Shown here in pieces: positions 1 through 29,443 of a stretch of DNA of 64,000 bases. This DNA is from Minisyncoccota bacterium (GTDB taxonomy: Bacteria; Patescibacteriota; Minisyncoccia; Phycocordibacterales; UBA9973): assembly GCA_041657885.1 (NCBI GenBank), contig JBBABB010000001.1, positions 1,094-65,093 of the forward strand, read 5' to 3'. Every line of letters starts with the position of its first letter. Position 1 is the first letter of the stretch. The translations under genes and the position numbers were made by a program. A model generated the notes under the pieces. The model worked only from the letters and a program-made list of their open reading frames with translations, did no database searches and was not told the origin of the DNA.

Positions 1-1067
1 TCTTCTTCTATATCTAACATTTCAAAAAACTTTGTTGCCAATTCTTTCGGCATAATATATTCGCTTAATGTTGACGAAAGTTGTCGTTCCAGTTCTTCGC
101 CTCGTATGCACGGTTCAAAACATTTTTGCGTTTTAGATTTCTTTGAGCAGTGATAATAAGTATAAAAATGTTTATTCCCGTTCTTTTGTCGTTTTATTTT
201 TATCTCTCCAGTAATTCCCATACCACACGAACCACAAGAGAGAAGTCCACAAAATGGTCTTGGGTTAGCTTCCTTTTTTGGTTTGCGACCCTTGCCTCGT
301 AAAATAGCATTTGCTTTATCAAAAAGTTCTTTGGAAATAATCGGCTCATGCTTGCCCTCGTATATTTCGCCTGCGTGGCGAAAATGTCCGTAATAAATAG
401 GGTTGCTAATAATGTGCGATATTCGTGAAATATGTACACGATTATTATTTTTTGATTTTACATTTCCATTTTCTAAAACTTTTGCGAGGTCTTCAAGTCT
501 GACATTTCCCGTTGCATAAAGTTCAAATATTTTTTTCACGAGTTTTGCGTTTTTCTGATGAATAGCAATTTTCTTAATATTGGAATTATTTATATATCCA
601 AATGGAGCAAGTCCGGGATAGTCGCCATTTCGTGCTTTCTGTCGTAGTCCGCGGGCGGTATTCTCGCTTAATTGGCGGACATATTCATTTGCCATTCCTA
701 ACTCAATAGACATCATTAACACATTATCATTTGGATAATGACTTTGTCCGTGTGTTTGAATATGTTGGATAATTCCTTGTTGCAAAAGCCATTGTATTTT
801 TCCACTATCTACTGGATTGCGTGATAAGCGGTCAATTTTCCAGCAAACAATTCCTTGTGCTTCACCATTTTGTATACGCGAAAGCATATTGTTAAAAACT
901 GGACGGCCGGGGATTTTTGCTGACCGCTTTTCTATAAATTCATCAGAAATATAAATATTTTCTCGTTTGGCTAGTTCACGAAGTTCGGCGAGTTGTGATT
1001 CAATAGAGAGGATTTGTTTATCCTCAACGTCAGTGCTTTTGCGAGCATATAAAAAGTATTTAAGCAT
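1..1067 (-). CDS. Large serine recombinase (resolvase/invertase N-domain, recombinase domain and zinc beta-ribbon); 5' part only, continues past the window edge
   Basis: Minus-strand translation from ATG at 1067-1065 reads MLKYFLYARKSTDVEDKQILSIESQ...GIVCWKIDRLSRN...CGLLSCGSCG..YYHCSKK. This gives the catalytic Ser motif (YARKST), the DRLSR motif and a C-terminal Cys4 ribbon. It is absent from the ORF track because it has no in-window stop. Confidence 0.8.
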   Translation of the reverse strand, partial: MLKYFLYARKSTDVEDKQILSIESQLAELRELAKRENIYISDEFIEKRSAKIPGRPVFNNMLSRIQNGEAQGIVCWKIDRLSRNPVDSGKIQWLLQQGIIQHIQTHGQSHYPNDNVLMMSIELGMANEYVRQLSENTARGLRQKARNGDYPGLAPFGYINNSNIKKIAIHQKNAKLVKKIFELYATGNVRLEDLAKVLENGNVKSKNNNRVHISRISHIISNPIYYGHFRHAGEIYEGKHEPIISKELFDKANAILRGKGRKPKKEANPRPFCGLLSCGSCGMGITGEIKIKRQKNGNKHFYTYYHCSKKSKTQKCFEPCIRGEELERQLSSTLSEYIMPKELATKFFEMLDIEE

Positions 1068-1127
1068 AGTTGTATTATACCACAACTGATGACATAAAGC
1101 ACAACTATAGAGTATAATCTGTGTATA

Positions 1128-1333: not shown

Positions 1334-2923
1334 ATGAAAATAAAAGAAATTAAAATTATCAACAATACAGAAACTTGTGCTGATATAAACCTAATTCTAG
1401 GTGCTAACAACACGGGTAAAAGTACTTTTATAAGAGAGCTTGAAGAAGCAAGTAAAACCTGTCAAATTGGGTTAAAGAACAAATGGATAACAGGCGTAAA
1501 ATTTGAGGCGTCTGGAATCAAGACTAGATTTGATAGTTTATTTCCCGGAGTATCTGCCTTTGCTGTTTACGAGGGAACAGAACAAGAAATAAATAGTATT
1601 GGAGGAGCAAATATTTTTAGTTCAAACTGGAATAATGAAGTTTTTCAAGCAATGAAGGCAAAGCTGGATACTTCTGAAACATATGAAGCTATAACTCATC
1701 CATCAAAAGATAGGGATTGGCATTATTTTAGTTTTGTTAATAATATGTCTGTTTCTATGGAAAACTGTGATTCAAGATTATCAGGACCATTTTTTACTCA
1801 AATAAACAGGGTGGATGAAAATTATAAAGATATAGTTCATTACTTTTATTCACAAAACTCTCTTTTTCAAAAAATATCAGATCATATTAAAGATGTTTTT
1901 GGTATAGAAATTATTTTTGACGACTTAGAGCAAGGACAAAAAGATATCCGCTTAGCACCTGATGTTGCTAAACCTGCTTCTTTTCCAAACCGTAGAAATG
2001 AAGGTCAGTTTTGGGCAGAACATTCTCCGATATTAGCTTCTCAAGGTGATGGCTTGAAAGCTTACTTGAAAATATTATACGCTCTCTTTAATCCCGCAAA
2101 GGATGTGATCATAATTGATGAACCTGAAGCATTTTTACATTCACCTCAAAGAAGAAGTTTAGGTAAATTCATTGCCGATAACGCATCTAGTGGTAAGCAA
2201 ATATTTATTTCTACTCATGATAGTGAATTTTTAAGAGGAGTTCTCACAAATACTACCTGTGATACACAAGTAGTTCATTTAAAAGAGAAACTAGGTAAAA
2301 GAAGCTATACAGTTAATAGAACACCTTCAAATACCAGAACGAGAAATAATAATGAACTCATGCTTAATTCTTATTTTAATAAATTAACCGTATTATGCGA
2401 AGCCGAAGACGATAGAGTAATTTATCAATATGCAAGTCAATCTTTTTTCCCTACACCGACGGTTGATATTCATTTTCTTGGACTCAATGCTAAAAGTGAT
2501 TTGTTTCTAATATTCAAACATTTACAGAGTTTAGAAATTGAAACCGTAGGAATAGTGGATATCGATGTTCTTTATTCAGGAGAATGTTTAGGGCTTTCTC
2601 TTAACCAAACAGAAAAAAATTTAATAGAGGAGGTGAAAAACCTCTTAAATGCTTTATCACAAGCAGACAGAGATATATTTAAGGAAAATGGGGTTGTCTC
2701 TCTGTCGTCCAATGCTTCACTTAGTCAGAAGGTTCAAGATGCAATACAAATAGCGAAGAAATACAAAATTTTTATTGTACCCATAGGAGAACTTGAGAGT
2801 TGGCTAGATACACCAACCGCATCAAAAAGAAAAGTGCAGGCTATGAAAAATGAGATCGACACAAGTCCAACGACTACAAAAAAATCAACCTTAAAAAAAT
2901 TCATAGGAGAAGTTATTTCTTAA
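1334..2923 (+). CDS. OLD-family / PARIS-like ABC-type ATPase fused to a Toprim nuclease (putative anti-phage or abortive-infection effector)
   Basis: Walker A ILGANNTGKST, Walker B VIIIDEPEAFLHSPQ and H-loop ISTHDSEF. The C-terminal half carries Toprim-like acidic motifs (VLCEAEDD, GIVDIDVLYSGE). It is coupled to the upstream HTH gene. Confidence 0.6.
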   Translation: MKIKEIKIINNTETCADINLILGANNTGKSTFIRELEEASKTCQIGLKNKWITGVKFEASGIKTRFDSLFPGVSAFAVYEGTEQEINSIGGANIFSSNWNNEVFQAMKAKLDTSETYEAITHPSKDRDWHYFSFVNNMSVSMENCDSRLSGPFFTQINRVDENYKDIVHYFYSQNSLFQKISDHIKDVFGIEIIFDDLEQGQKDIRLAPDVAKPASFPNRRNEGQFWAEHSPILASQGDGLKAYLKILYALFNPAKDVIIIDEPEAFLHSPQRRSLGKFIADNASSGKQIFISTHDSEFLRGVLTNTTCDTQVVHLKEKLGKRSYTVNRTPSNTRTRNNNELMLNSYFNKLTVLCEAEDDRVIYQYASQSFFPTPTVDIHFLGLNAKSDLFLIFKHLQSLEIETVGIVDIDVLYSGECLGLSLNQTEKNLIEEVKNLLNALSQADRDIFKENGVVSLSSNASLSQKVQDAIQIAKKYKIFIVPIGELESWLDTPTASKRKVQAMKNEIDTSPTTTKKSTLKKFIGEVIS

Positions 2924-2942
2924 AATAAAACTACAAAGGGAG

Positions 2943-2966
2943 TTTGCCGATTCGCAAATCGGCAAA
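2943..2966 (+). terminator. Stem-loop (9-bp stem, CGCA loop) immediately after the OLD-like gene stop
   Basis: tttgccgatt cgca aatcggcaaa forms a perfect hairpin. There is no strong U-tract, so the terminator assignment is tentative. Confidence 0.35.
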
Positions 2967-3263
2967 GGTTAACACGCGCATGGGCGTGGGTGGGTGAGAA
3001 GCGAATACTTGGAGCTTCGCAAGGCCGGAGGCTGGCGAGCCGAGGCGGGGTCGCAGGATTTTTCCGCAGAAAAATACCTGTGACAATGACTAATACGTAC
3101 GACCTCCCCTCCAAAAAACTCTCCCTCCAAAAAATCTTGGGCTTTTGAATTTTTGAACCTCACCCTAAAAAAACGCGAAGCGTCCGGAAACCCTTTGCCA
3201 CACTACGCAGAGCTTCGCTCTGCTCGCGAAAATTTTTCTGAAAAACCCTTGAGTTTGATTGCG

Positions 3264-3496
3264 GAGTATCTTTTAAAATCAGCTAGAACCTATTTTAGTA
3301 AAAATTGTTCCTAAAAACCTATCAAACGAACTAATGCGCACGCTCCGCGTGCCTCTTAACTTTAAACTAATTACCACGCTCTACTAATGTGCTAATTCCA
3401 AATGGACTCAGAAAATGGAAACAAATATTTTGGGGATTAGGATTTCCATTTTCCTCGACTGTATCTTTTGGCGAGATTTCAAATTCTGCCCGCAGG
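3264..3496. repeat. Left copy of a ~233-bp inverted repeat bracketing the R-M module
   Basis: The reverse complement of 8829-9060 matches this segment with about 5 differences (1 indel, ~4 substitutions). It contains internal hairpins (gcacgc..gcgtgc; aaaatggaaa..tttccatttt). Confidence 0.85.
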
Positions 3497-3572
3497 AGGG
3501 GTTTGGGGAGGAATGCGGGCGAAATTTATTGGTAGGCTATGGAAAGAATGCAAAAAATGTTAGAATTACTCT

Positions 3573-4412
3573 GTGGAATATATAAACAAAGTTTATTTTA
3601 AAGATGCTAGAAAAATGACAGAATTACCAGACAATTCTGTACAGTTAATTGTAACTAGTCCTCCTTATTTCAATATAAAAGATTATTCTCTTGACGGATA
3701 TCAAAAAAATAAAAAAGCTCAAAAAGCAACTGGTCAAATTGGTGATATCGCAGATTATGAAAAATACATTGATGAAATGGTTTTGGTTTGGAAAGAATGT
3801 GAGCGTGTATTAAAACCGAATGGAAAGTTAATAATTAATACACCACTTATGCCGATGTTAAAAAAAAATCTGATCACTCATTACAACAGGCACATTTTTA
3901 ATATTAACAACGACATAGAACACTCAATATTAAAAAAAACTAATTTGTTTTTAATGGATGTTTATTTTTGGAATAGAACGAATCCGAGCAAAAAACTAAT
4001 GTTCGGTAGCTATCCATATCCGCGAAATTTTTATGCTCAAAATACAACAGAGTTTATAACTGTGTTTGTGAAAGACGGAATTCCAGAAAATAATCTCCCA
4101 GCAAAAATTAAAGATAGAAGTAAATTGAGCCAAAAAGAATGGGTAGAATTTACTAAGCAAATTTGGAATATTCCAATCCCCGGCAAAGGCGATTTGGCTT
4201 TTGGAGAACATTCAGCACTAATGCCAGAAGAAATTGTTAGGCGTTGTGTTAGATTATTTACCTTTGTTGAAGATGTTGTCTTAGACCCATTTGCAGGATC
4301 AGGGACTACTTTAAAAGTAGCAAAGGAATTAGAAAGAAATTTTGTCGGGTATGAGATTTCTAAAAGTTATGAGGATATTATAAAATTAAAGTTGCGACCT
4401 AAATTATTTTAA
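3573..4412 (+). CDS. DNA methyltransferase, beta-class amino-MTase (N6-adenine or N4-cytosine); M subunit 1 of a Type II R-M system
   Basis: Motif IV TSPPY lies N-terminal to motif I DPFAGSGTT, which is the beta permutation. The likely true start is ATG at 3615 (MTELPDNS), since the track start at 3573 is a GTG. Confidence 0.85.
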   Translation: MEYINKVYFKDARKMTELPDNSVQLIVTSPPYFNIKDYSLDGYQKNKKAQKATGQIGDIADYEKYIDEMVLVWKECERVLKPNGKLIINTPLMPMLKKNLITHYNRHIFNINNDIEHSILKKTNLFLMDVYFWNRTNPSKKLMFGSYPYPRNFYAQNTTEFITVFVKDGIPENNLPAKIKDRSKLSQKEWVEFTKQIWNIPIPGKGDLAFGEHSALMPEEIVRRCVRLFTFVEDVVLDPFAGSGTTLKVAKELERNFVGYEISKSYEDIIKLKLRPKLF

Positions 4413-4415
4413 TTT

Positions 4416-5198
4416 ATGCTTAAAATTAACAAAATCTATAATTTAGACTGCTTCGACTTTTTAAGTAAAGTTGATGATTCGTCAATCAATCTTGCTGTTA
4501 TTGATCCCCCTTATAATATGAGCAAGGCAGATTGGGATACATTCAAATCACATAAAGACTTTTTGGATTTTACTTACAAATGGATAGACGCATTATTACC
4601 GAAATTAACACAAAATGGAAGTTTGTATATTTTTAACACACCATTTAACTCAGCATATATTTTACAATATCTTACTTCAAAAAATATGGTTTTCCAAAAT
4701 TGGATTACTTGGGACAAAAGAGATGGGCTTGGAACATCAAAAAGAAAATATAGCAATGGACAAGAATCAATACTATTTTTCACAAAATCTGATAAACATA
4801 TTTTTAATTACAACGATATAAGAGTTCCTTATGAATCCACAGACAGAATAGAACACGCCGTTAAAAAAGGAATCTTAAAAAATGGTGAGAGATGGTTTCC
4901 TAACCCGAACGGAAGATTTTGTGGAGAAGTTTGGCACATCACTAGTGAACGACACAAAAGAAAAATAAATGGGAAAGTTCAAAAAATGGAACACTTAACA
5001 CCTAAGCCGTTGGATTTAATTGAAAGAATTGTAAAAGCAAGTTCTAAAAAAGGAGATTTAGTTTTGGATTGCTTCGTCGGTAGCGGAACGACAGCAGTTG
5101 CTTCAAAAATACTAGGTAGAAATTTTTTGTGTTCCGATATAGACAAAAAATATGTTAAATTAGCAGAAAAAAATTTATATTTATATGCCGATAAATAA
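4416..5198 (+). CDS. Second beta-class amino DNA methyltransferase (M subunit 2)
   Basis: IDPPYN (motif IV) is followed C-terminally by DCFVGSGTTAVAS (motif I). It starts 3 nt after the M1 stop. Confidence 0.85.
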   Translation: MLKINKIYNLDCFDFLSKVDDSSINLAVIDPPYNMSKADWDTFKSHKDFLDFTYKWIDALLPKLTQNGSLYIFNTPFNSAYILQYLTSKNMVFQNWITWDKRDGLGTSKRKYSNGQESILFFTKSDKHIFNYNDIRVPYESTDRIEHAVKKGILKNGERWFPNPNGRFCGEVWHITSERHKRKINGKVQKMEHLTPKPLDLIERIVKASSKKGDLVLDCFVGSGTTAVASKILGRNFLCSDIDKKYVKLAEKNLYLYADK

Positions 5199-6441
5199 TA
5201 TCAATCAAGGAAATAAGGCACTAGAATTTATAGATTTTAGAATTAAAGACGACAAATATCGTGGTTCTCGTTCTTCGCAACATAACAGATATATCATGCA
5301 ACAAGTTGTAGATATATTAAAACTTTTTAATCAATATGCTCCAAATAAAATGCTTATGCCTATTCGTACGGCTGATATTTCAAAAAGACCACAAAATACA
5401 GCAGAGGAAGCTACATACGCTCAATTTTGTAATGACGCAAAAGAAAAAACAAAAGGCATAACAAGTAAAGAAGGAATAGGAACGCAAGATGCTATGAGAA
5501 AAAATTTATTTCCCGATTTGCACAGAATGGGACTTATTGTTAGGTATGATAAAGATAAAAAACCAACAGACCCATTTTCAAAACAAGGTGTTAAATATGT
5601 ATCGCTGAGTAATCAAGGACTAAAGTTGATAAAAGGGAAAACTATTCTTGAGCAATACTTTATATTTTCAAAAGGAATAGATAATTTACTTGGTGGTTAT
5701 ATTGACATTATTTTGGATATATTAAGAGATAAAGAGTATGGAATAGATAACCTAAACATTTTTGAATATATGTTTTTTGTTTCAGCAGTAGGAACGGAAA
5801 CAAGTTTTAACAAAAGCACAGATGAAGCAGTCGATTTAATAAAAGAATATAGAAATTTAACATCCACACAAAGAAAATCTGTAATTGAAACTTTAAAAGT
5901 TGAGCTAAATCCTAAAAAGTTTGCAGGAAATAAGACAAAGAAAAGAGATTTTCATAATTGGCATAATAAAGCCGTACAAGTATTTTATCTTCTAAATCAA
6001 ACAGTTTATTTTGAAGTCAGGGGCGATCAATTAGTTCTTAAGGGAGGAATAAATGGTTTTGCTGAAACAGCAATAATAAGCACAAGACTAGATAGATCAT
6101 TAAATGAGAAATACCAGTATTTTGTAAAAAATGAAATTGAAAAAGTAACGGGATTTGAACTTCATCATGTTGTTCCTTTGGCGTGGTCAGAAAGTATCCA
6201 CCATTTCAAATTGTTAGATAAATGGGAAAATATGGTTTATATAGATGCGTTTAGTCATGCAAAAATTACACAAAACAGAAACCGTAATGTAATTATAGAT
6301 TTTGTGAGTGATGACATGACACTAACCGATCATTCAAAAAATCAGATATATTTAAAAGTTCAAGATAATATTGCATATAAACCAACAAACAAGACAGTGA
6401 TGAAAAAGTATAATAATGAATTGCTGAATACGGTGAAATAA
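5185..6441 (+). CDS. Putative restriction endonuclease with a C-terminal HNH-like motif
   Basis: It overlaps the M2 stop by 14 nt. The C-terminus ELHHVVPLAWSE...NMVYIDAFSHAKIT has an HNH-like His-His...Asn...His spacing. The N-terminus shows no recognisable similarity. Confidence 0.5.
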   Translation: MPINNINQGNKALEFIDFRIKDDKYRGSRSSQHNRYIMQQVVDILKLFNQYAPNKMLMPIRTADISKRPQNTAEEATYAQFCNDAKEKTKGITSKEGIGTQDAMRKNLFPDLHRMGLIVRYDKDKKPTDPFSKQGVKYVSLSNQGLKLIKGKTILEQYFIFSKGIDNLLGGYIDIILDILRDKEYGIDNLNIFEYMFFVSAVGTETSFNKSTDEAVDLIKEYRNLTSTQRKSVIETLKVELNPKKFAGNKTKKRDFHNWHNKAVQVFYLLNQTVYFEVRGDQLVLKGGINGFAETAIISTRLDRSLNEKYQYFVKNEIEKVTGFELHHVVPLAWSESIHHFKLLDKWENMVYIDAFSHAKITQNRNRNVIIDFVSDDMTLTDHSKNQIYLKVQDNIAYKPTNKTVMKKYNNELLNTVK

Positions 6442-6452
6442 AAAATCCCCTA

Positions 6453-6798
6453 AAATACTAGTGGGAAAGGTAAATGGCTAACTACTACTTGTGCTTTGTC
6501 TTATCGACAAGCACAAAGGTTTTCGCGTCGCCTCCGTAAGGAGGAACGCGCTCACCTTTAGTTAGAGTAATCTCGCGTTTCGTTCCCGAGACTTGATATT
6601 GCCCTGACTTAGGAGCAGTGCCACCTGTTTTGATTTTAGTCATAACAGTTATTTGCTTAATTCTAATAATCTAGGGGCTTATCGAACCTCTCACCCCCTC
6701 GTTTAAGCTTCGTAGAAGCACAAACGAGGGGGAGGAGGATAAGTTGATCCCATAGAGAATAAAATTCGGCACCTAAGTTTTTCCCACTAGTATTTTAA
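6453..6798. repeat. MITE-like or structured-RNA element bounded by perfect 16-bp terminal inverted repeats (TAAAATACTAGTGGGA)
   Basis: 6453-6468 is the exact reverse complement of 6783-6798. The interior has nested hairpins including GNRA-type loops (cctcc-gtaa-ggagg; ccccctcgttt...aaacgaggggg) and no ORF of 60 aa or more. Confidence 0.5.
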
Positions 6799-6892
6799 AG
6801 GACTTTAATTTTTGAATTATATACTTATTTTAAAATTTTACAATTTCAAGAAAGTGCTTTCTCGTGCGCGAACGTGAGAATGGGTTAAGTGT

Positions 6893-6901
6893 GCTATAAT
6901 A
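6893..6901 (+). promoter_or_regulatory. Extended -10 promoter (TGcTATAAT) upstream of the zinc-ribbon ORF
   Basis: tgctataat matches TGnTATAAT. It overlaps the 3' end of a recurrent 30-nt motif. Confidence 0.35.
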
Positions 6902-6929
6902 TACTTACAACTGAATAGTTCGATCAAGA

Positions 6930-7367
6930 GTGGTGGTAGAGAATTGGCTCGATGACCCCACAGCAACCTGCTTCGGTAAGGTGCTAAATCCAACCAGACA
7001 CGAAAGTGTCAGGAAAGATGTGTTTGTGCCTAGTCCGCACAAAAACTCTTTCCTCTTTATTAGAGGAATTTTTTATTTTATGAAGAAAATACCAGAAGGT
7101 TTAGTTAGGTGTGAAGTATGTGGAGAGTATAAAGGTGAGGTAAAAGAGAAAGACTTAAATTGGGGCGACTCTTGTTTTTACAAAGCAGAAGTAGAAAAGA
7201 GTGAAGAATACCTCTCTGTGTCTTGTCTTTGCGACGGCATCTTATGTCATAAGTGTAAGAAAAATAAAATTCATAGGCCTATATCAAATTCTTATGATGA
7301 GATTGATAATGACATTGGTCATTGGCCGTGGTTCACCGGAATGATGCCATGTAAAGAGTGTAAATAA
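6930..7367 (+). CDS. Small cysteine-rich zinc-ribbon protein; likely real start at ATG ~7080 (MKKIPEGL...)
   Basis: CEVCG...SCLCDGILCHKCKK...PCKECK gives three CxxC pairs. The upstream 150 nt of the track ORF looks like a structured 5' UTR rather than coding sequence. Confidence 0.4.
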   Translation: MVVENWLDDPTATCFGKVLNPTRHESVRKDVFVPSPHKNSFLFIRGIFYFMKKIPEGLVRCEVCGEYKGEVKEKDLNWGDSCFYKAEVEKSEEYLSVSCLCDGILCHKCKKNKIHRPISNSYDEIDNDIGHWPWFTGMMPCKECK

Positions 7368-7379
7368 TAAAAAATCATT

Positions 7380-7610
7380 ATGAAAAATATAGAAGAATAC
7401 AAAACAACCAGTGAGTGGTATAAAGATGCTCGAAGTGAAGGATATAATTTCCCCGTCTCAATGTGCCACGGATTAGATGTTGGACAAAGAAAATTAAAAT
7501 TAAGTTTTGCAGACGTTTTTCAATTGTTTGTAAAAAATAATATAATTATTCAAGTCAATGATAGGTTTATTTATAATTTGGAGGGATATCTCGCTATCAA
7601 AAACAACTAG
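7380..7610 (+). CDS. Hypothetical small protein (76 aa)
   Basis: An ORF only 13 nt after the previous stop, with no recognisable motif. Confidence 0.3.
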   Translation: MKNIEEYKTTSEWYKDARSEGYNFPVSMCHGLDVGQRKLKLSFADVFQLFVKNNIIIQVNDRFIYNLEGYLAIKNN

Positions 7611-7644
7611 GATTAAATTATAAAAGAATGATAAAATAAAATAT

Positions 7645-8337
7645 ATGCCCGACGACCAAAACGCATCTCAAAATCCAATTTCCGAAGAAAACCCTTCACC
7701 TACAAGCCCCCAAGAGTCCATAGAGCAAGGCACTGAAAACACAGCACATTCTGAACCTTCCGTTGCACCTCTTGATGCCCTAGAAAGCTCACCGAACGAC
7801 TTTTCAGTGAAAAGTAATGATATACCACCCTCAAATTCTACCCCTACGGAAGCAGTAAATGAGCCAGAAACTCTAGAAAAACAAGTCCCAAATGAACCTA
7901 ACCCCGAGCCAGTTTCTGAACCCATAGAATCTCCTGAACCCGAAACGGCTCAAATACCGGTATCTGAGCCGTTGAACTCTACGAGCGAGCCGTTAGGCGA
8001 GCAAGTAGAATTCCCAGAAACTAAAACAGAGACAAAACCAACCCCCGAAGTAAAACCTGAACCAGTAGAAACTAACCCCATTCTTGTTTCAACTAAACCC
8101 TCCCAAAAAAATTTATGGCAAAGATTTCTAAGTAAAATACAAATTGGAAAAAGAAAAAAGCTGGATCGTGTTATGACTTTATTTCTTAAACAATCTAAAA
8201 TCACAAACGACGAAGTCGAGAAATTTCTTCATGTCTCGGATGCAACTGCAACTAGATACCTTTCACAATTGGAGAAAGAAGGAAAAATAAAACAAGTTGG
8301 TAAAATTGGAAAAGCAGTTTCGTATTCCAGAATTTAA
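7645..8337 (+). CDS. Protein with a Pro/Glu/Ser-rich disordered N-terminal half and a C-terminal winged-HTH domain
   Basis: About 150 aa of low-complexity PEPV/SEP repeats precede LDRVMTLFLKQSKITNDEVEKFLHVSDATATRYLSQLEKEGKIKQVGKIGKAVSYSRI, a DeoR/MarR-like wHTH. Confidence 0.5.
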   Translation: MPDDQNASQNPISEENPSPTSPQESIEQGTENTAHSEPSVAPLDALESSPNDFSVKSNDIPPSNSTPTEAVNEPETLEKQVPNEPNPEPVSEPIESPEPETAQIPVSEPLNSTSEPLGEQVEFPETKTETKPTPEVKPEPVETNPILVSTKPSQKNLWQRFLSKIQIGKRKKLDRVMTLFLKQSKITNDEVEKFLHVSDATATRYLSQLEKEGKIKQVGKIGKAVSYSRI

Positions 8338-8418
8338 TTTTCGGGGAGTCGCCGTCCTTCTTTTCCTCACGGCGGTTTAGTGCGCGAACGGGAGGGTGGG
8401 TCAAGCACGAGTATTTCC

Positions 8419-8730
8419 GCCTCGGGCATTTCCGCTAGGGTGTCCATGACTAAAGGACGAGTGCCGCCCAGCTGGTGCAATACTAAAATCTAAAGGCGAA
8501 AGCTATACACACTAAACACGGATATGAATAAAGTAGAGTGGGGATGGCGAGGGCAGACTGCTGGTAATCCAGCAGAGCCCGACCCGGGGAGAGGAAACTT
8601 CCTCTCCCCAAGAAGTTGCGGGCAATCTAGTGAACGGCTCATTTACTGGTATTTGAGCCGTTCGGATATTTTGCTTGCCCGCTCATAGGCATCTAGGCAC
8701 TCGTAGCCCTAGCGGAAATGCCCGAGGCGG
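8419..8730. repeat. Second MITE-like or structured element, closed by a perfect 24-bp inverted repeat
   Basis: ccgcctcgggcatttccgctaggg (8420-8443) is the exact reverse complement of 8706-8729. The interior holds hairpins such as gggagagga-aactt-tcctctccc. Confidence 0.5.
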
Positions 8731-8781
8731 ATGCCGAGGGTGCACCTCAAAACTTTAAATAACCACCAAAGTAGAAAAATG

Positions 8782-8791
8782 GTATAATGCC
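8782..8791 (+). promoter_or_regulatory. Extended -10 promoter (TGgTATAAT) reading into the right inverted repeat
   Basis: tggtataatg is a perfect extended -10. A transcript would cover 8829-9060, which is complementary to the plus-strand RNA of the left repeat. Confidence 0.35.
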
Positions 8792-8828
8792 CGAGACAAT
8801 GATTTTTGTATTTTGATTTTGAGTTTTT

Positions 8829-9060
8829 CCTGCGGGCAGAATTTGAAATCTCGCCAAAAGATATAGCCGAGGAAAATGGAAATCCTAATCCCCAAAATTT
8901 TGTTTCCATTTTCCGAGTCCATTTGGAATTAGCACATTAGTAGAGCGTGGTAATTAGTTTAAAGTTAAGAGGCACGCGGAGCGTGCGCATTAGTTCGTTT
9001 GATAGGTTTTTAGGAACAATTTTTACTAAAATAGGTTCTAGCTGATTTTAAAAGATACTC
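8829..9060. repeat. Right copy of the ~233-bp inverted repeat
   Basis: See the left copy at 3264-3496. Its outer end lies 6 bp from the cysK-like stop codon. Confidence 0.85.
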
Positions 9061-9066
9061 ATTAAA

Positions 9067-10068
9067 TTAAATATAAAAATTTGCTAATTCTTGAGTTATT
9101 TTTTCATCTAAAAGTTCCTTTTCAGCCATCCAGTCATCATTAAAGGCGTGGGTAAGATAACTTTCACCACTGTCGCCAATAATTAAGACCATATTTTTTA
9201 TTTTTTCTGAAATCGGTTCTCCATTAATAAATTTCATCGCATAATAAAGAACCATTCCACTTGAATCTCCAACTAGCAATCCTTTCTGTTCAGCAAAAAA
9301 GCGCATAGTATTAAATGCTTCCTTATCCGCAACATAATCATGTTTATCAAAAATAGAAGTATTAATATTTTTAGGTGGAATAGCTCCGGCTGGATATCCT
9401 GGGCCGGAAATAAAATAACCATGTCCGCGTGGGGAGAAATGACTGGAACCTTTTGGCTCTAGGGCGATTACCTTAGTATGTCCATGTTCTTTTATATATC
9501 GGCCAGATCCAGATAGGGAACTACCAGTACCGATTGTTCCAACTAAATAATCAGCATCAGGTACTTGTTCAAAAATTTCTTTACCCAAAGTGTTGTAGTA
9601 GCCCTTGGGGTTTTCAGGGTTGTCGTACTGGTCAAGATTGATTCCGCCTTTTTCTTCAGCCAGTCGCTTAGCAGTTTTGCGACGGACATCAACCAAATGC
9701 CCACCCTTTGGGTCTTCTTCGTCACTACAGAAATGTAATTTGCCGCCATAGGCCTTGATTGACCTAAGCTTATCGGCTGGAGCATGTTTGTCAACGATAG
9801 CGGTGAATTTATATCCCCGAGCGGCTGACAGCATTGCTAGGGCCTTGGCTGTATTTCCAGAAGAAGATTCAAAAATTTCCATTCCTTTTTTTAATTGGCC
9901 AGATTGTTCGGCTGCATTCATTAAGACTTGAGCAGTCCTATCTTTAAAACTTCCAGCTGGGTTAAAATATTCCAGCTTTAAATAAATCTTCCAATCCGAC
10001 CTAGTGGTCGATATTTCAAGCATTGGGGTTTCCCCGATGAGTTCATCAATACTTTTATTAATAGTCAT
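9067..10068 (-). CDS. cysK: PLP-dependent cysteine synthase / cystathionine beta-synthase family enzyme (fold type II)
   Basis: SFKDR lysine motif, GNTAKALA, and a Gly-rich loop GTIGTGSSLSG. Confidence 0.75.
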   Translation of the reverse strand: MTINKSIDELIGETPMLEISTTRSDWKIYLKLEYFNPAGSFKDRTAQVLMNAAEQSGQLKKGMEIFESSSGNTAKALAMLSAARGYKFTAIVDKHAPADKLRSIKAYGGKLHFCSDEEDPKGGHLVDVRRKTAKRLAEEKGGINLDQYDNPENPKGYYNTLGKEIFEQVPDADYLVGTIGTGSSLSGSGRYIKEHGHTKVIALEPKGSSHFSPRGHGYFISGPGYPAGAIPPKNINTSIFDKHDYVADKEAFNTMRFFAEQKGLLVGDSSGMVLYYAMKFINGEPISEKIKNMVLIIGDSGESYLTHAFNDDWMAEKELLDEKITQELANFYI

Positions 10069-24546: not shown

Positions 24547-24562
24547 AATTAAAAAATAAAAA

Positions 24563-24598
24563 CCTATACAAACTCTGCCATGGCAGAGTTTGTATAGG
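24563..24598. repeat. REP-like 36-bp palindrome, copy 1; acts as a bidirectional terminator between convergent genes
   Basis: cctatacaaactctgccatggcagagtttgtatagg is a perfect palindrome. Near-identical copies lie at 28823 and 29367. Confidence 0.6.
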
Positions 24599-24601
24599 TT
24601 T

Positions 24602-25102
24602 TTATTTTCTCTTATATTCCGCAAATGACAATCTATATTTATTTTTCTCATCAGCTTCGTGTTTTTCTTCGGAGATTTTTTGCCATTTAGTCATATCAAT
24701 TTGAGGGAAGAAAGTATCGGCATCGGGGAATTCTACTTCCACATGAGTAATATAAAGCTTATCCACTTTGTCCATGAATAGTTTGTATATTTGTCCTCCG
24801 CCGATTATAAAACATTCACTATCTTCCGGTTCTGTTTTTTCAAGTAATTCCATGAGTTCATCTACCCCGTATACTATTTCAATTCCTTCACTTTTAAAAT
24901 CAGCATCTTTTGTAAGAATTATATTTCGGCGATTTGGAAGTGGTCGCCCAATAGATTCAAAAGTTTTTTGCCCCATTATTACTGTGTGTCCACTTGTGGT
25001 CTCTCTGAAATGCTTCATGTCAGCAGGTAAATCCCAAAGAAGGGCATTTCCTTTTCCAATTTCATTATTTTTTCCTATGGCTGATATTATTGATAGAATC
25101 AT
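24602..25102 (-). CDS. folA: Dihydrofolate reductase
   Basis: IAAIGKNNEIG..LPW (substituted LLW here) and GRKTFESIGRPLPNRRNIILT. Confidence 0.85.
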   Translation of the reverse strand: MILSIISAIGKNNEIGKGNALLWDLPADMKHFRETTSGHTVIMGQKTFESIGRPLPNRRNIILTKDADFKSEGIEIVYGVDELMELLEKTEPEDSECFIIGGGQIYKLFMDKVDKLYITHVEVEFPDADTFFPQIDMTKWQKISEEKHEADEKNKYRLSFAEYKRK

Positions 25103-28372: not shown

Positions 28373-28813
28373 ATGAGTAATCACAAAGATGGGATAGCAT
28401 CAAATGGAGAGTTACTTCACTATTCTGTGGGGGCTGTTATTGAAAAAGATGGAAAATATTTGCTAATTGATCGAGTTAATCCACCCTTTGGCTTCGCAGG
28501 GCTTGCTGGTCATGTGGATGAAGGTGAATCGGAAGATGATGCAATCACACGAGAAGTGACAGAAGAATCTGGGTTGAAAGTATTGTCTTATAAACTTCTT
28601 TTTGAAGAAGAAATTCTTTGGAATTATTGTCGTGGTGTTAGCCGTGGGGCTACAGCACATAAATGGCGTTTATATGAATGTGAGGTTGAAGGAGAAGTTA
28701 TTCATAACAAAGAGGAAACTAAATCAATCGGATGGTATAGTATTGATGAAATCAAAAAGATGAATCTTGAGCCAGTTTGGGAGTATTGGTTCGAAAAATT
28801 AAAAATAATTTAA
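28373..28813 (+). CDS. NUDIX hydrolase
   Basis: Nudix box GHVDEGESEDDAITREVTEESGL. Confidence 0.8.
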   Translation: MSNHKDGIASNGELLHYSVGAVIEKDGKYLLIDRVNPPFGFAGLAGHVDEGESEDDAITREVTEESGLKVLSYKLLFEEEILWNYCRGVSRGATAHKWRLYECEVEGEVIHNKEETKSIGWYSIDEIKKMNLEPVWEYWFEKLKII

Positions 28814-28822
28814 ATATAAAAA

Positions 28823-28858
28823 CCTATACATTTTCTGCCATGGCAGAGAATGTATAGG
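28823..28858. repeat. REP-like palindrome, copy 2
   Basis: cctatacattttctgccatggcagagaatgtatagg shares the core CTCTGCCATGGCAGAG with copies 1 and 3 and has compensatory arm changes. Confidence 0.6.
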
Positions 28859-28861
28859 TTT

Positions 28862-29338
28862 TTATTTGTATGGTTTTTCTAATTTGAAAGTTTTAATACA
28901 CTTATCTAATTTAATTTCCTTAATATAATCTTTAAATTCTTTTGGCATAGGAGATGGTCCCACCCAAACACTTTTTTGAATCATAATGTAATTAAATTTT
29001 TTCAAATGCCATCTCAACCATTCCCTATGAGCTTTCTTCTCTGTTGGTACATCAAACATCACCAATAGAGTTTTATCTTTGGAAATATTTTCTGGTCGAT
29101 CGAATTGTTTTAATGAATCAAATTTTCTTTTCACATATTCTTTCCCATATTTTGATAAAACTATTCCCGCCAATTCTTTTTCAATTAAACCTCTTTTCCT
29201 CAATCTACTTATAGTGTTATACATGACATCTTTTTTGTATTTCTTAAAACGGGGGATTCCAAAAAGATTTACCCTAACTCCTTTGTAGTTAAGTTCGGTA
29301 TTCCACAACTCTTCTAATAGTTCACTTACAATAGACAT
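28862..29338 (-). CDS. Small winged-HTH plus Cas2/VapD-like-pattern protein (paralog A)
   Basis: N-terminal YNTISRLRKRGLIEK (wHTH-like) and C-terminal LLVMFDVPTEKKAHREWLRWHLKKFNYIMIQKSVWVG. The ORF at 40491 is a paralog. The gene is bracketed by REP-like palindromes. Confidence 0.35.
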   Translation of the reverse strand: MSIVSELLEELWNTELNYKGVRVNLFGIPRFKKYKKDVMYNTISRLRKRGLIEKELAGIVLSKYGKEYVKRKFDSLKQFDRPENISKDKTLLVMFDVPTEKKAHREWLRWHLKKFNYIMIQKSVWVGPSPMPKEFKDYIKEIKLDKCIKTFKLEKPYK

Positions 29339-29366
29339 ACAATATATATTATATACTCTTGATAAA

Positions 29367-29404
29367 ATCTATACAAACTCTGCCATGGCAGAGATTGTAT
29401 AGAT
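29367..29404. repeat. REP-like palindrome, copy 3, in a divergent promoter region
   Basis: atctatacaaactctgccatggcagagattgtatagat. Confidence 0.6.
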
Positions 29405-29443
29405 TTCTCGAGATTAGATTTTAGTGATATAATTTAACTTAAT

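What the first reader, a model, noticed from the sequence alone, without database searches (positions are those of the whole stretch)
8419..8730. Second ~310-bp element closed by a perfect 24-bp inverted repeat
ccgcctcgggcatttccgctaggg (8420-8443) and its exact reverse complement at 8706-8729 enclose ~260 nt rich in hairpins, for example gggagagga-aactt-tcctctccc. I checked for RNase P (CR-I/CR-V ACAGAA..GGCUUA), tmRNA (tag/T-arm-CCA) and group II domain V consensus and found none. The element has the same organisation as 6453-6798: perfect inverted repeats and an RNA-like interior. Two such elements inside one island is unusual for a streamlined genome.
Basis: seen in the sequence. Interest (0 to 1): 0.55.

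Follow-up and report, generated by a model that had tools for sequence, protein, structure and literature searches.

The report
New large structured RNA in Paceibacteria
The inverted repeat is the closing stem of a previously undescribed, roughly 400-base folded non-coding RNA that recurs in many ultra-small (CPR) bacteria at the end of swappable gene cassettes, often carrying restriction-modification genes; its function is not known.

Summary
A 25-bp perfect inverted repeat (8416-8440 / 8707-8731) encloses 266 nt of GC-rich, hairpin-rich sequence.

It is not junk, a MITE or an invertible promoter. It is the core of a conserved structured RNA that matches no Rfam 15 family. More than 100 distinct homologues were aligned from Paceibacteria genomes and metagenomes. 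The repeat is helix P1. On 105 sequences, 40 of 75 pairs show compensatory changes, 90% of cells pair, and G-U wobbles favour the + strand.

The RNA is longer than the repeat suggests. It has a conserved 5' domain (GGGAG, a hairpin, and a covarying G-rich 'motif G', 8343-8412) and a conserved 3' tail.

Its setting is just as consistent. It follows diverse genes on the same strand. It lies 76-115 nt inside one arm of a long inverted-repeat pair that bounds 3-11 kb of variable cargo, here 3264-3497 and 8828-9060 around an R-M operon. A large serine recombinase gene often lies just outside.

The palindromic tip of helix P7 (8633-8662) occurs almost only when a winged-helix gene lies upstream. It is probably that protein's DNA site.

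The function is unknown. My best guess is an RNA scaffold or insulator at the cassette's 3' end.

The parts
8343..8348 (+). Conserved GGGGAG (family consensus AGGGAG), just after the stop codon of the upstream gene. Presumed 5' end of the RNA.
   Evidence: Present in nearly all upstream alignments. The 5' end itself is inferred, not mapped.
8350..8374 (+). Hairpin H0 (CGCCGU / ACGGCG) with a pyrimidine-rich loop. An optional module of the 5' domain.
   Evidence: Homologous hairpins with different stem sequences occur in 'variant b' loci.
8377..8412 (+). Motif G: a covarying 4-5 bp helix (GUGC/GCAC here) enclosing the invariant G-rich loop CGCGAACGGGAGGGUGGGUCAA.
   Evidence: 109 distinct sequences with many compensatory changes. 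Covariance model R1 scores this site 42 bits. 124 of 134 regex hits in 1.26 Mb lie directly 5' of P1.
8416..8440 (+). P1, 5' strand: the left arm of the reported inverted repeat.
   Evidence: helix 1: 91% paired, 7 pairs with changes on both sides.
8442..8458 (+). P2 hairpin (GUCC / GGAC, loop AUGACUAAA).
   Evidence: helix 2: 97% paired; CG to UA in 21 sequences; G-U in 46.
8459..8465 (+). P3, 5' strand (GAGUGCC). It pairs with 8696-8702.
   Evidence: helix 3: CG to UA in 28 sequences, GC to UA in 8.
8496..8503 (+). GC-GAAA-GC hairpin with a GNRA tetraloop, inside the conserved A-rich junction 8466-8550.
   Evidence: Nearly invariant in A2 and A3. It reads as GNRA only on the + strand.
8551..8580 (+). 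P5, a variable hairpin (GGGC..CUGCUGG-UAAU-CCAGCAG..GCCC). Other subfamilies expand it into a multibranch domain.
   Evidence: many different stems that still pair. helices 5 and 6: all 10 pairs change on both sides.
8586..8609 (+). P6: a 10-bp polypurine/polypyrimidine helix with nearly invariant sequence.
   Evidence: helix 7: 99% paired; AU to GC in 15 sequences, GC to AU in 8.
8618..8682 (+). P7: lower stem GCGGGCA / UGCCCGC, plus a tip hairpin.
   Evidence: helices 8 and 9: all 7 pairs change on both sides.
8633..8662 (.). Palindrome AACGGCTCA-N12-TGAGCCGTT at the tip of P7. Probably a double-stranded DNA site for the upstream winged-helix (wHTH) protein.
   Evidence: Present in 25 of 26 loci with the wHTH gene upstream, against 11 of 62 without it (p=2e-12). 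A second copy lies in the ORF. The spacers of the two copies match in either orientation.
8696..8702 (+). P3, 3' strand (GGCACUC).
8707..8731 (+). P1, 3' strand: the right arm of the reported inverted repeat.
8732..8750 (+). Conserved 3' tail, UGCCGAGGGUGCACCUC.
   Evidence: GGAUGCCGAGGG is nearly invariant in A2 and A3.
7645..8337 (+). Gene for a 230-aa protein: residues 1-150 disordered, then a long helix and a winged helix-turn-helix at the C-terminus. An accessory partner of the RNA in about 30% of loci.
   Evidence: Pfam HTH_24 / MarR, below Pfam's gathering cut-offs; 1814 homologues; AlphaFold2 model; 28 of 91 RNA-first loci carry it.
7944..7973 (.). Second copy of the palindrome, inside the wHTH ORF. 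It encodes the conserved peptide ETAQIPVSEPL.
8780..8788 (+). TGGTATAAT, an extended -10-like box between the RNA and the repeat arm, conserved in one subgroup.
   Evidence: downstream alignment. The consensus scan did not call it a promoter.
8828..9060 (.). Right arm of the long inverted repeat that bounds the cassette.
   Evidence: 98% identical to 3264-3497 in inverted orientation. Homologous arms follow the RNA in other loci.
3264..3497 (.). Left arm of the long inverted repeat.
8972..8986 (.). Palindrome GCACGCGGAGCGTGC inside the repeat arm. Candidate recombination core (inference).
   Evidence: Read from the sequence. Similar CGCGGAGC motifs lie at the arm boundaries in L120 and L180. 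Contig ends cluster 200-250 nt after the RNA.
3573..6441 (+). Cassette cargo: two N6/N4 DNA methyltransferases (3573-4412, 4416-5198) and a 418-aa ORF (5185-6441) with no significant Pfam match (best hit below the gathering cut-off), a candidate restriction endonuclease by position only.
2924..3264 (+). 'e3': GC-rich non-coding stretch outside the left arm. It starts with a degenerate motif G copy at about 2972-3010. In other loci it occurs as inverted pairs flanking the recombinase gene.
36..1073 (-). Large serine recombinase gene, cut by the start of the window.
   Evidence: Pfam Resolvase + Recombinase + Zn_ribbon_recom; tblastn.

Best explanation
The region 8343-8750 encodes a conserved, roughly 400-nt structured non-coding RNA. 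It belongs to a family that is not in Rfam and that I did not find in the literature searched. It is made from the + strand.

Shown:
- The reported inverted repeat is the RNA's closing helix, P1.
- P1 encloses a hairpin (P2), a long-range helix (P3), a conserved A-rich junction with a GNRA hairpin, and three arms (P5 variable, P6 invariant, P7 variable).
- A 5' domain (GGGAG, hairpin H0, motif G) and a 3' tail lie outside P1.
- The RNA is a fixed component of a recurrent Paceibacteria gene-cassette architecture: [inverted-repeat arm] - 3-11 kb of variable, mostly co-oriented cargo (here an R-M operon) - (optional wHTH gene) - this RNA - [inverted-repeat arm]. A large serine recombinase gene often lies just outside an arm.

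Inferred:
- The RNA acts as RNA at the 3' end of the cassette transcript. It is either transcribed with the cargo or from a promoter overlapping the last codons of the upstream gene.
- The long P1 clamps the ends. This would block exonucleases and/or offer an RNase III site, and would insulate the cassette from the repeat arm.
- The conserved junctions suggest that a specific partner binds them.
- The palindromic tip of P7 is not part of the core RNA. It is a double-stranded DNA operator for the cassette's own wHTH protein, with a second copy inside that protein's ORF, placed at a position the RNA tolerates.
- What the RNA ultimately does is unknown.
For: Family and structure:
- nhmmer finds full-length homologues in more than 60 of 80 genome loci.
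- On 105 sequences, 90.4% of cells pair against 82.2% in shuffles. 40 of 75 pairs change on both sides. The covariation score is 0.192 against 0.077 (0 of 500 shuffles reach it) and about 0.04 when partners are slid.
- P5 and P7 change length and sequence but keep pairing.

Strand:
- G-U outnumbers A-C 216 to 23 in the consensus pairs.
- The GAAA tetraloop reads as GNRA only on the + strand.
- The upstream gene is co-oriented in 81 of 94 loci.

5' domain.

Not a known family.

Cassette architecture:
- Window repeat pair.
- An inverted copy of the RNA's downstream sequence lies 2.7-11 kb upstream in 32 of 45 loci that have more than 5 kb of upstream sequence. The right arm starts 76-115 nt after the RNA.
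- In seven loci inspected the cargo is mostly co-oriented, and in four of them it includes R-M genes.
- Recombinase.

wHTH site:
- 25 of 26 against 11 of 62 loci, p=2e-12.
- The stem is invariant and the spacers match in either orientation.
Against: - No expression data are available. The 5' and 3' ends are inferred.
- No consensus sigma-70 promoter or intrinsic terminator is found in 8200-9100.
- The terminator, stabiliser or insulator role is a guess. It would not by itself need such a complex and sequence-conserved RNA.
- The strand call rests on wobble counts and on context. The - strand also folds well.
- The recombinase is seen in only about 10-13% of loci on either side. Many contigs are too short to tell.
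- The alignment used for pair counts is MAFFT-based, and the structure was derived from the window sequence. That favours the unshifted register in the slide control.
- Several loci place the RNA in a stable chromosomal position upstream of prfB-ftsE. This also fits the rival reading, in which the RNA is a chromosomal target gene.
Confidence: 0.55

Rival explanations
1. The RNA is a chromosomal, trans-acting 'housekeeping-like' RNA gene. It only looks cassette-linked because mobile elements use its 3' flank as an integration site. tRNA and tmRNA genes are used this way, and rlmH is the target of staphylococcal cassette chromosome elements, which large serine recombinases move.
For: - Sequence conservation across Paceibacteria lineages is very high; P1 and the 3' 40 nt are almost invariant.
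- Serine recombinase genes lie 330-700 nt downstream in several loci.
- tRNA genes border the repeat arms in L016 and L180.
- The same position upstream of prfB-ftsE-ftsX is seen in the window and in L016, L049 and L012.
- Assemblies break in and just after the RNA, as they do at conserved RNA genes.
- The SCC/ECC analogy comes from the paper PMC6222049, found.
Against: - At least three diverged paralogues lie in one 813-kb contig: L004, L016 and L027.
- The variable genes lie mainly on the 5' side of the RNA, between it and the inverted arm. Integration into a target gene's end would put them on the 3' side.
- No Rfam family matches, including RNase P, tmRNA, SRP and 6S.
Confidence: 0.25
2. 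The RNA is a cofactor or regulator of DNA rearrangement. It would guide, bridge or license recombination (inversion or exchange) at the sites inside the flanking repeat arms, together with the neighbouring serine recombinase.
For: - The RNA sits at a constant 76-115 nt from the inner edge of a repeat arm.
- Arms within a locus are 98-100% identical, while arms of different loci are much more diverged. That suggests ongoing exchange between the two arms.
- The window and L013 look like inversion isomers.
- RNAs at the ends of mobile elements that direct recombination are known: TnpB/IscB omega RNA and the IS110 bridge RNA (my own knowledge).
Against: - No known serine recombinase uses an RNA (my own knowledge).
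- A recombinase is seen near only a minority of copies.
- I found no convincing, covarying complementarity between loops of the RNA and the arm sequences. The one lead, between the P1 5' arm and a downstream box, failed in several loci (read).
- No single segment was seen in both orientations.
Confidence: 0.08
3. It is a DNA-level element and not an RNA gene: a MITE with terminal inverted repeats, an invertible promoter ('inverton'), a cruciform, or a single-strand replication origin.
For: - A perfect 25-bp inverted repeat flanks about 270 bp.
- Both strands fold equally well.
- A serine recombinase gene lies in the same island.
Against: - Conservation continues outside the repeat on both sides.
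- The interior has the same orientation relative to its flanks in all 106 full-length homologues (42 genome loci; 64 metagenome loci).
- No target-site duplication is present.
- There is one copy in the 64-kb window and at most a few diverged copies per genome.
- Internal helices covary with G-U wobbles on one strand, and there is a GNRA loop.
Confidence: 0.03
4. It is a cis-regulatory leader (riboswitch-like) for the gene downstream.
For: - The RNA is large and structured.
- prfB lies downstream in a few loci.
- A -10-like box lies between the RNA and the repeat arm.
Against: - Downstream genes differ widely and lie on the opposite strand in a third of loci: 24 of 72. In the window the next gene (cysK-like, 9067-10068) converges on the RNA.
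- It is the upstream gene that is consistently co-oriented.
Confidence: 0.03

Closest known systems
Large 'ornate' bacterial non-coding RNAs of unknown or recently found function (OLE, GOLLD, ROOL, raiA, HEARO)
   Same: - More than 300 nt long, with many conserved helices that covary.
- Conserved junction nucleotides and peripheral arms of variable length.
- GC-rich islands in AT-rich genomes.
- GOLLD, ROOL and HEARO also travel with mobile DNA (my own knowledge).
   Different: - No sequence or structure match to any of them in Rfam 15.
- Restricted, as far as seen, to Paceibacteria (CPR).
- Fixed position at the 3' end of cassettes bounded by inverted repeats.
- Carries an optional protein operator in one arm.
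RNAs encoded at the ends of mobile elements (TnpB/IscB omega RNA, IS110 bridge RNA)
   Same: A structured RNA that starts at or near the 3' end of an upstream ORF and ends close to an element boundary.
   Different: - No TnpB, IscB or IS110-type gene was seen among the neighbours examined. The neighbouring recombinase is a serine recombinase, and upstream genes are diverse.
- No guide-like variable 3' segment was identified.
Cassette chromosomes moved by large serine recombinases (SCCmec / ECC at rlmH)
   Same: Variable accessory and R-M cargo next to a conserved gene, large serine recombinases, and repeats at the boundaries (PMC6222049, found).
   Different: - The conserved landmark is an RNA, not rlmH.
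- The boundaries are long inverted repeats, 105-510 bp and 98-100% identical.
- The recombinase usually lies outside the bounded segment.
Invertible segments with recombination sites inside inverted repeats (Hin/Gin/Cin systems; the yeast 2-micron FLP/FRT 599-bp repeats)
   Same: A segment bounded by inverted repeats with a recombinase gene beside it. The arms stay near-identical, as in flip-flop systems (my own knowledge).
   Different: - Inversion was not shown here.
- The repeats are much longer than hix/gix sites.
- The recombinase is of the large serine type.
- No RNA component is known in those systems.
MITEs / REP-like repeats
   Same: About 300 bp closed by terminal inverted repeats, strongly folding, and located after genes.
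   Different: See the membership test: no target-site duplication, conservation beyond the repeats, low copy number, and compensatory substitutions.

Membership tests
Any Rfam 15 family (including RNase P, tmRNA, SRP, 6S, group I/II introns, HEARO, OLE, GOLLD, ROOL, raiA) | Covariance-model match at or near the family's gathering score | tested here: not met
   No hit overlaps 8338-9066, either at gathering score over the whole window or at E<=10 on 6300-9100. No hit on the homologous regions of eight loci at E<=1.
tmRNA / tRNA-like | tRNA-like domain with a T-arm and CCA end, plus a tag reading frame | tested here: not met
   ARAGORN finds nothing in 2800-9300.
MITE | The inverted repeats are the termini of the element: conservation stops there and a target-site duplication flanks them | tested here: not met
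   A conserved 5' domain (about 75 nt) and a 3' tail lie outside the repeat. The flanks gagtatt / tgccgag share no duplication.
MITE | Many near-identical copies per genome | tested here: not met
   One copy in 64 kb. Three diverged paralogues in an 813-kb contig. The rest of the source genome was not available.
Inverton (invertible promoter) | The interior is found in both orientations relative to its flanks | tested here: not met
   All 42 full-length genome hits and 64 full-length metagenome hits are collinear with the window, flanks included.
Inverton (invertible promoter) | A site-specific recombinase encoded nearby | tested here: inconclusive
   A large serine recombinase gene lies at 36-1073. 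It is associated with the 234-bp repeats and with e3, not with the 25-bp arms.
Retron non-coding RNA | a1/a2 inverted repeats flanking msr-msd, next to a reverse transcriptase gene | tested here: not met
   A flanking repeat is present. No reverse transcriptase appears among the ten neighbouring proteins scanned with Pfam or among the recurrent neighbour clusters.
omega RNA / bridge RNA | Adjacent TnpB, IscB or IS110 recombinase gene | tested here: not met
   Upstream genes are diverse. Window neighbours are methyltransferases, the wHTH gene and a PALP enzyme.
Riboswitch / 5' leader | A conserved family of co-oriented genes downstream | tested here: not met
   The downstream neighbour is on the opposite strand in 24 of 72 loci and varies in identity.
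Conserved structured non-coding RNA (generic) | Compensatory base changes that maintain helices across diverged homologues | tested here: met
   40 of 75 pairs change on both sides. Covariation score 0.192 against 0.077 in shuffles (0 of 500 reach it) and about 0.04 when partners are slid. RNAalifold agrees.
Conserved structured non-coding RNA (generic) | Transcribed as a discrete RNA | not testable with these tools
   No transcriptome data were available.
Protein-coding | A conserved ORF with indels in multiples of three | tested here: not met
   The only ORFs are 50-54 codons. Homologue lengths range from 274 to 376 nt, with arm insertions of arbitrary length.

The most novel reading that the evidence does not exclude
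The RNA is an active component of a DNA-rearrangement system. It would license, guide or time recombination by the large serine recombinase at the sites inside the long inverted-repeat arms. That would control inversion or exchange of whole defence-gene cassettes in CPR bacteria, and would be an RNA-dependent serine-recombinase system, with no precedent I know of. A variant of this reading: it is a new large ribozyme that processes the cassette transcript.
Probability: 0.1. Interest if true: 0.9.

Novelty: new variant of a known kind. Interest (0 to 1): 0.68.

Why it matters
- Large, highly structured bacterial RNAs are rare. New classes in this size range have repeatedly led to new biochemistry, for example HEARO, which turned out to be the IscB omega RNA (my own knowledge).
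It covaries strongly. It is confined, as far as seen, to Paceibacteria, ultra-small episymbiotic bacteria with very few known regulatory RNAs.
- It marks a repeatable genome architecture: variable cassettes, often carrying R-M genes, bounded by near-identical inverted repeats, with serine recombinases beside them. This may be how these streamlined genomes store, switch or exchange accessory functions.
- The RNA's invariant 3' 33-mer is a practical probe for finding such cassettes in metagenomes.
- The repeats also explain why assemblies of these genomes break at these loci.

Tried and rejected
- Rfam at gathering score and at permissive E-values, on the window and on eight homologous loci: nothing.
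- ARAGORN: nothing.
- BLAST of 8338-9066 against the phage and plasmid collections: no match.
- Exact-pattern scans of viral contigs with the P1 arm, with motif G and with the RNA's 3' consensus: none. I have no sign that it is phage-borne.
- 'The motif GTGCGCGAACG..TGGGT.AAG is a promoter or operator shared by three transcripts': rejected for the copy at 8380. Its ends covary as an RNA helix. The copy at 6864 is degenerate (14 bits). There it may have been co-opted, since it supplies the TGnTATAAT in front of the SAM riboswitch.
- 'Elements 1 and 2 are copies of one mobile element': rejected. They share no similarity beyond motif G, and element 1 appears to lie on the other strand.
- 'The RNA is an obligate partner of the wHTH protein': rejected. 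63 of 91 RNA-first loci lack the gene.
- 'Kissing loops between the mRNA hairpin and the P7 hairpin': rejected as a general mechanism. The spacers are reverse complements in only 30 of 50 loci and same-sense in 16.
- 'Divergent RNase P RNA': the overall layout (P1, a hairpin, a long-range helix, three inner arms) is reminiscent. But the CR-I and CR-V consensus sequences are absent (read from the sequence), there is no weak Rfam hit, and one genome carries several paralogues.
- A covariance model of the whole RNA could not be built, because of the calibration time limit. I used MAFFT alignments and my own scripts instead. mafft-qinsi was not installed.
- The AlphaFold2 model of the wHTH protein was confident only for the last 45 or so residues, so I ran no fold search.
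- Complementarity between the P1 5' arm and the box after the -10-like element looked promising in two subgroups but failed in L011, L012 and L022 (read).
- My first script for spacer orientation was wrong, because fuzzy matching shifted the boundaries. I corrected it.
Full report
**1. The observation**

The sequence CCGCCTCGGGCATTTCCGCTAGGG occurs once on each strand, at 8417-8440 (+) and 8707-8730 (-). None is expected in 100 dinucleotide-preserving shuffles. The complementarity runs to 25 bp (8416-8440 / 8707-8731, 100%), with 266 nt between the arms.

The interior is GC-rich: 0.49-0.52 against about 0.30-0.35 around it. It folds far better than shuffled sequence on either strand, with z = -7.4 and -8.0. 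It lies in the 729-nt gap between a 230-aa ORF (7645-8337, +) and a convergent PALP/cysK-like gene (9067-10068, -).

**2. It matches no known RNA family**

Rfam 15 finds a SAM-I riboswitch (6918-7024) and three tRNAs in the window. It finds nothing at the element, even at E<=10, and nothing on the homologous regions of eight other loci. ARAGORN finds no tRNA or tmRNA. The region has no BLAST match in the phage or plasmid collections. Its signature sequences are absent from viral contigs. Five literature searches and one paper look-up turned up no description of it.

**3. It is a conserved family**

The upstream ORF belongs to a large family of 1814 hits. The source record is a 'Candidatus Paceibacterota' MAG, locus tag WC908_00055. 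Using an alignment of that protein (A1), I fetched 80 loci from species-representative genomes. Their labels are Paceibacterota, Nomurabacteria, Yonathbacteria, Kaiserbacteria, Zambryskibacteria and Minisyncoccia, plus a few bins with other labels. nhmmer with the window element finds it just downstream of the gene in more than 60 of the 80 loci, and at full length in 41.

A search that does not depend on the protein used the nearly invariant 3' 33-mer against metagenome contigs. 64 of them carry a full-length copy.

**4. It is a structured RNA on the + strand**

*Pairing and covariation.* On a 105-sequence alignment (A3), I laid out the helices read from the window sequence. 90.4% of cells pair, against 82.2% in column shuffles. 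40 of 75 pairs show changes on both sides. The covariation score is 0.192, against 0.077 in shuffles (0 of 500 reach it) and about 0.04 when the 3' partners are slid by 1-3 columns. RNAalifold recovers P1, P2, P3 and P6 independently.

*The helices.*

| Element | Window coordinates | Behaviour across the family |
|---|---|---|
| P1 | 8416-8440 / 8707-8731 | About 20 bp conserved; the outer 4 bp are specific to this lineage |
| P2 | 8442-8458 | Conserved hairpin |
| P3 | 8459-8465 / 8696-8702 | Long-range helix |
| A-rich junction | 8466-8550 | Conserved; holds a GC-GAAA-GC hairpin at 8496-8503 |
| P5 | 8551-8580 | Variable: at least eight different stem sequences that all pair, often with a UAAU loop; a multibranch domain in one subfamily |
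| P6 | 8586-8609 | Nearly invariant polypurine/polypyrimidine 10-mer helix |
| P7 | 8618-8682 | Variable |

*Strand.* G-U outnumbers A-C 216 to 23 in the consensus pairs. The GNRA loop and the orientation of neighbouring genes point the same way.

*Not coding.* Lengths range from 274 to 376 nt, with insertions of arbitrary size.

**5. The RNA is longer than the repeat**

Alignments of the upstream flank show three conserved features. An AGGGAG sits right after the upstream stop codon (8343-8348 here). An optional hairpin with a pyrimidine-rich loop follows (H0, 8350-8374). Then comes 'motif G' (8377-8412).

I first took motif G for a promoter, because similar sequences precede the SAM riboswitch (6864) and lie in the non-coding region 2924-3264. 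But its ends covary as a helix: GUGC/GCAC, UGCGC/GCGCA, UACGC/GCGUA, GUGUGU/ACACAC, GGGC/GCCC. The helix encloses invariant G-tracts (CGCRAYGGGWGGG ... GGGKCAA). Most sequences have a richly covarying hairpin inserted there. There are 109 distinct sequences in all.

A covariance model (R1) scores the 8377 copy at 42 bits and the 6861 copy at only 14 bits. By regex, 124 of 134 occurrences in 1.26 Mb of loci lie directly 5' of P1. Three others begin the 'e3' sequence on the opposite strand.

Downstream of P1, the tail GGAUGCCGAGGGUG is nearly invariant.

**6. The winged-helix protein and the palindrome**

*The protein.* It has a disordered N-terminal 150 residues, then a long helix and a winged helix-turn-helix.

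*The site.* The 30-bp palindrome AACGGCTCA-N12-TGAGCCGTT occurs twice in the window. One copy lies in the ORF (7944-7973, encoding the conserved ETAQIPVSEPL). The other forms the tip of P7 (8633-8662). 79 of the 80 protein-selected loci have at least one copy, and 50 have exactly two: one in the ORF and one in or just after the RNA.

*Association with the gene.* In the RNA-first sample, only 28 of 91 loci with room upstream have the gene. The palindrome in or near the RNA follows the gene: 25 of 26 loci with it against 11 of 62 without, Fisher p = 2e-12.

*DNA site or RNA hairpin?* The 9-bp half-sites never covary. The central 12 nt of the two copies in a locus resemble each other more than copies from different loci do (0.75 against 0.65, p = 3e-5). 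The match is as a reverse complement in 30 of 50 loci and in the same sense in 16. An orientation-independent, invariant palindrome is what a dimeric DNA-binding protein recognises. It does not fit one RNA hairpin recognised in two places, or a kissing pair.

I therefore read the P7 tip as an operator for the cassette's own wHTH protein, placed at a position the RNA tolerates. This is inference; binding was not tested.

**7. Genomic setting**

*Upstream genes.* The nearest upstream ORF is on the RNA's strand in 81 of 94 RNA-first loci. It ends about where the 5' domain begins. These genes are very diverse: helicases, OLD-like ATPases, P-type ATPases, oxidases and unknowns.

*Inverted-repeat arms.* In the window, a 234-bp sequence that starts 93 nt after the RNA (8828-9060) recurs inverted at 3264-3497, 98% identical. 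The pair encloses two DNA methyltransferase genes, a 418-aa ORF, element 1, the SAM riboswitch with two small ORFs, the wHTH gene and the RNA, all on the + strand.

This is the rule, not an accident. I BLASTed each locus's own RNA-downstream sequence against the rest of that locus. An inverted copy lies 2.7-11 kb upstream in 41 of 142 loci, and in 32 of 45 (71%) of those with more than 5 kb of upstream sequence. Arms are 105-510 nt long and mostly 98-100% identical within a locus, while arms of different loci are much more diverged. The right arm always starts 76-115 nt after the RNA.

*Cargo.* In seven loci inspected, the cargo between the arms is mostly co-oriented with the RNA. In four of them it includes R-M genes (C5 and N6/N4 methyltransferases, putative endonucleases, Vsr). 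Three open with an XRE-type HTH gene.

*Assembly breaks.* Many contigs begin and end inside the arms. 47 of 120 RNA-first loci end within 500 nt after the RNA, with a mode at 200-250 nt. An inverted repeat longer than the assembler's k-mer would cause exactly this. It also explains why another assembly of this organism breaks at 8915/9055. Two contigs (L134, L143) with kilobase-long perfect terminal repeats look like fold-back assembly artefacts.

**8. Recombinase**

The second commonest neighbour family after the wHTH protein is a large serine recombinase. The window has one at 36-1073 (-), with Resolvase, Recombinase and Zn_ribbon_recom domains. It lies outside the left arm, beyond an OLD-like ATPase gene and 'e3'.

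Such a gene lies within 3 kb downstream of the RNA in 9 of 67 loci and upstream in 11 of 96. e3-like sequences occur as inverted pairs flanking the recombinase gene in several loci.

In L013 the order is wHTH - RNA - arm - e3(rc) - ... - recombinase. In the window, e3 and the recombinase sit next to the other arm. The two arrangements are what inversion of the bounded segment would produce. I did not see one and the same segment in both orientations, so inversion is not shown.

The arm contains the palindrome GCACGCGGAGCGTGC (8972-8986). Related CGCGGAGC motifs lie at arm boundaries elsewhere, once directly against a tRNA 3' end (L180). That makes it a candidate recombination core. This is inference only.

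**9. How it most likely works**

*Shown.* It is a conserved, + strand-biased structured RNA gene with a defined architecture. It holds a fixed position at the 3' inner edge of variable cassettes bounded by inverted repeats. It carries an optional protein site.

*Inferred.* It acts as RNA in cis at the end of the cassette transcript. P1 clamps the ends, which would block exonucleases or offer an RNase III site and insulate the cassette from the arm. The invariant P6 helix and A-rich junction probably bind a specific partner.

I put 0.55 on this composite statement. I put more than 0.9 on 'real, conserved structured RNA of a new family', and roughly 0.3 on the specific stabiliser or insulator role.

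*Rivals.*

| Rival reading | Confidence | Main point |
|---|---|---|
| Chromosomal, trans-acting RNA gene used as an integration landmark, as rlmH is for SCC elements | 0.25 | Favoured by the extreme conservation and the recurrent position upstream of prfB; weakened by three diverged paralogues in one contig and by cargo lying on the 5' side |
| RNA cofactor of the recombination system | 0.08 | The novel case |
| DNA-level element (MITE, inverton, cruciform or origin) | 0.03 | Conservation outside the repeat, constant interior orientation in 106 full-length homologues, no target-site duplication, one-strand wobble covariation |
| Leader for the downstream gene | 0.03 | Downstream genes vary and often converge on the RNA |

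**10. Comparison and novelty**

It works like the large 'ornate' bacterial RNAs (OLE, GOLLD, ROOL, HEARO) in size, complexity and association with mobile DNA. It is a member of none of them. Its genomic frame resembles serine-recombinase cassette chromosomes and invertible segments with sites inside inverted repeats (2-micron FLP, Hin/Gin). None of those has an RNA landmark.

I rate it a new variant of a known kind, with interest 0.68. If the RNA proves to take part in recombination, it would be categorically new.

Noticed in passing
window 6442-6806 (homologues: L005 1411-1789, L080 723-1101, and L194): The 'first' element is a separate conserved structured RNA family. Four sequences give 21 compensatory pairs. 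The consensus fold is better on the MINUS strand (-107.9 against -88.7 kcal/mol; G-U 51 against A-C 4). That makes it antisense to the R-M operon. In all four loci it lies 0.5-2 kb upstream of a wHTH gene.
   Followed up: partly
window 3264-3497 and 8828-9060; also 36-1073 (-): A 234-bp inverted-repeat pair, 98% identical, encloses a 5.3-kb segment carrying an R-M operon. A large serine recombinase gene and an OLD-like ATPase gene lie just outside. The same architecture recurs in 71% of testable loci. The segment may be invertible or mobile.
   Followed up: partly
window 6861-7367: A SAM-I riboswitch (6918-7024, 56 bits) precedes a 95-aa cysteine-rich ORF (7080-7367) and a 76-aa ORF, inside the R-M cassette. 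A degenerate copy of motif G (6861-6896) just upstream supplies a TGnTATAAT box. A SAM sensor inside a cassette of SAM-dependent methyltransferases is suggestive.
   Followed up: no
window 2924-3264 (e3); L088, L159, L013 on the strand opposite the RNA: A GC-rich non-coding stretch that begins with motif G and is followed by pyrimidine tracts (CCUCCCCUCC..CUCUCCCUCC). It occurs as inverted pairs around the recombinase gene in other loci. It may be a second motif-G-led RNA running towards the repeat arm.
   Followed up: partly
window 7645-8100: The N-terminal 150 residues of the wHTH protein are predicted disordered, yet are well conserved across 33 homologues (for example DFSVKSNDIPPSN and ETAQIPVNEPL). 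The second motif is dictated by the DNA palindrome at 7944-7973.
   Followed up: partly
window 24553-24608, 28796-28885, 29364-29406: A repeated perfect palindrome, AAAAACCTATACAAACTCTGCCA|TGGCAGAGTTTGTATAGGTTTTT, occurs at three or more sites. It looks like a family of bidirectional terminators or a REP-like repeat.
   Followed up: no
L134 and L143 (metagenome contigs): These contigs have perfect terminal inverted repeats longer than 1 kb that reach both contig ends and duplicate the recombinase gene. They are most likely fold-back assembly artefacts caused by the inverted-repeat arms.
   Followed up: no
L003 start = window 6952: An independent assembly of the same organism breaks inside the SAM riboswitch. 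That suggests a strain variant or a further repeat to the left of 6952.
   Followed up: no
L180 about 2290-2306; L016 4487-4559: tRNA genes lie directly against the outer ends of the repeat arms. In L180 a tRNA 3' end (GGTTCGAGTCCTACC) abuts the arm. This is typical of integrase target sites.
   Followed up: no
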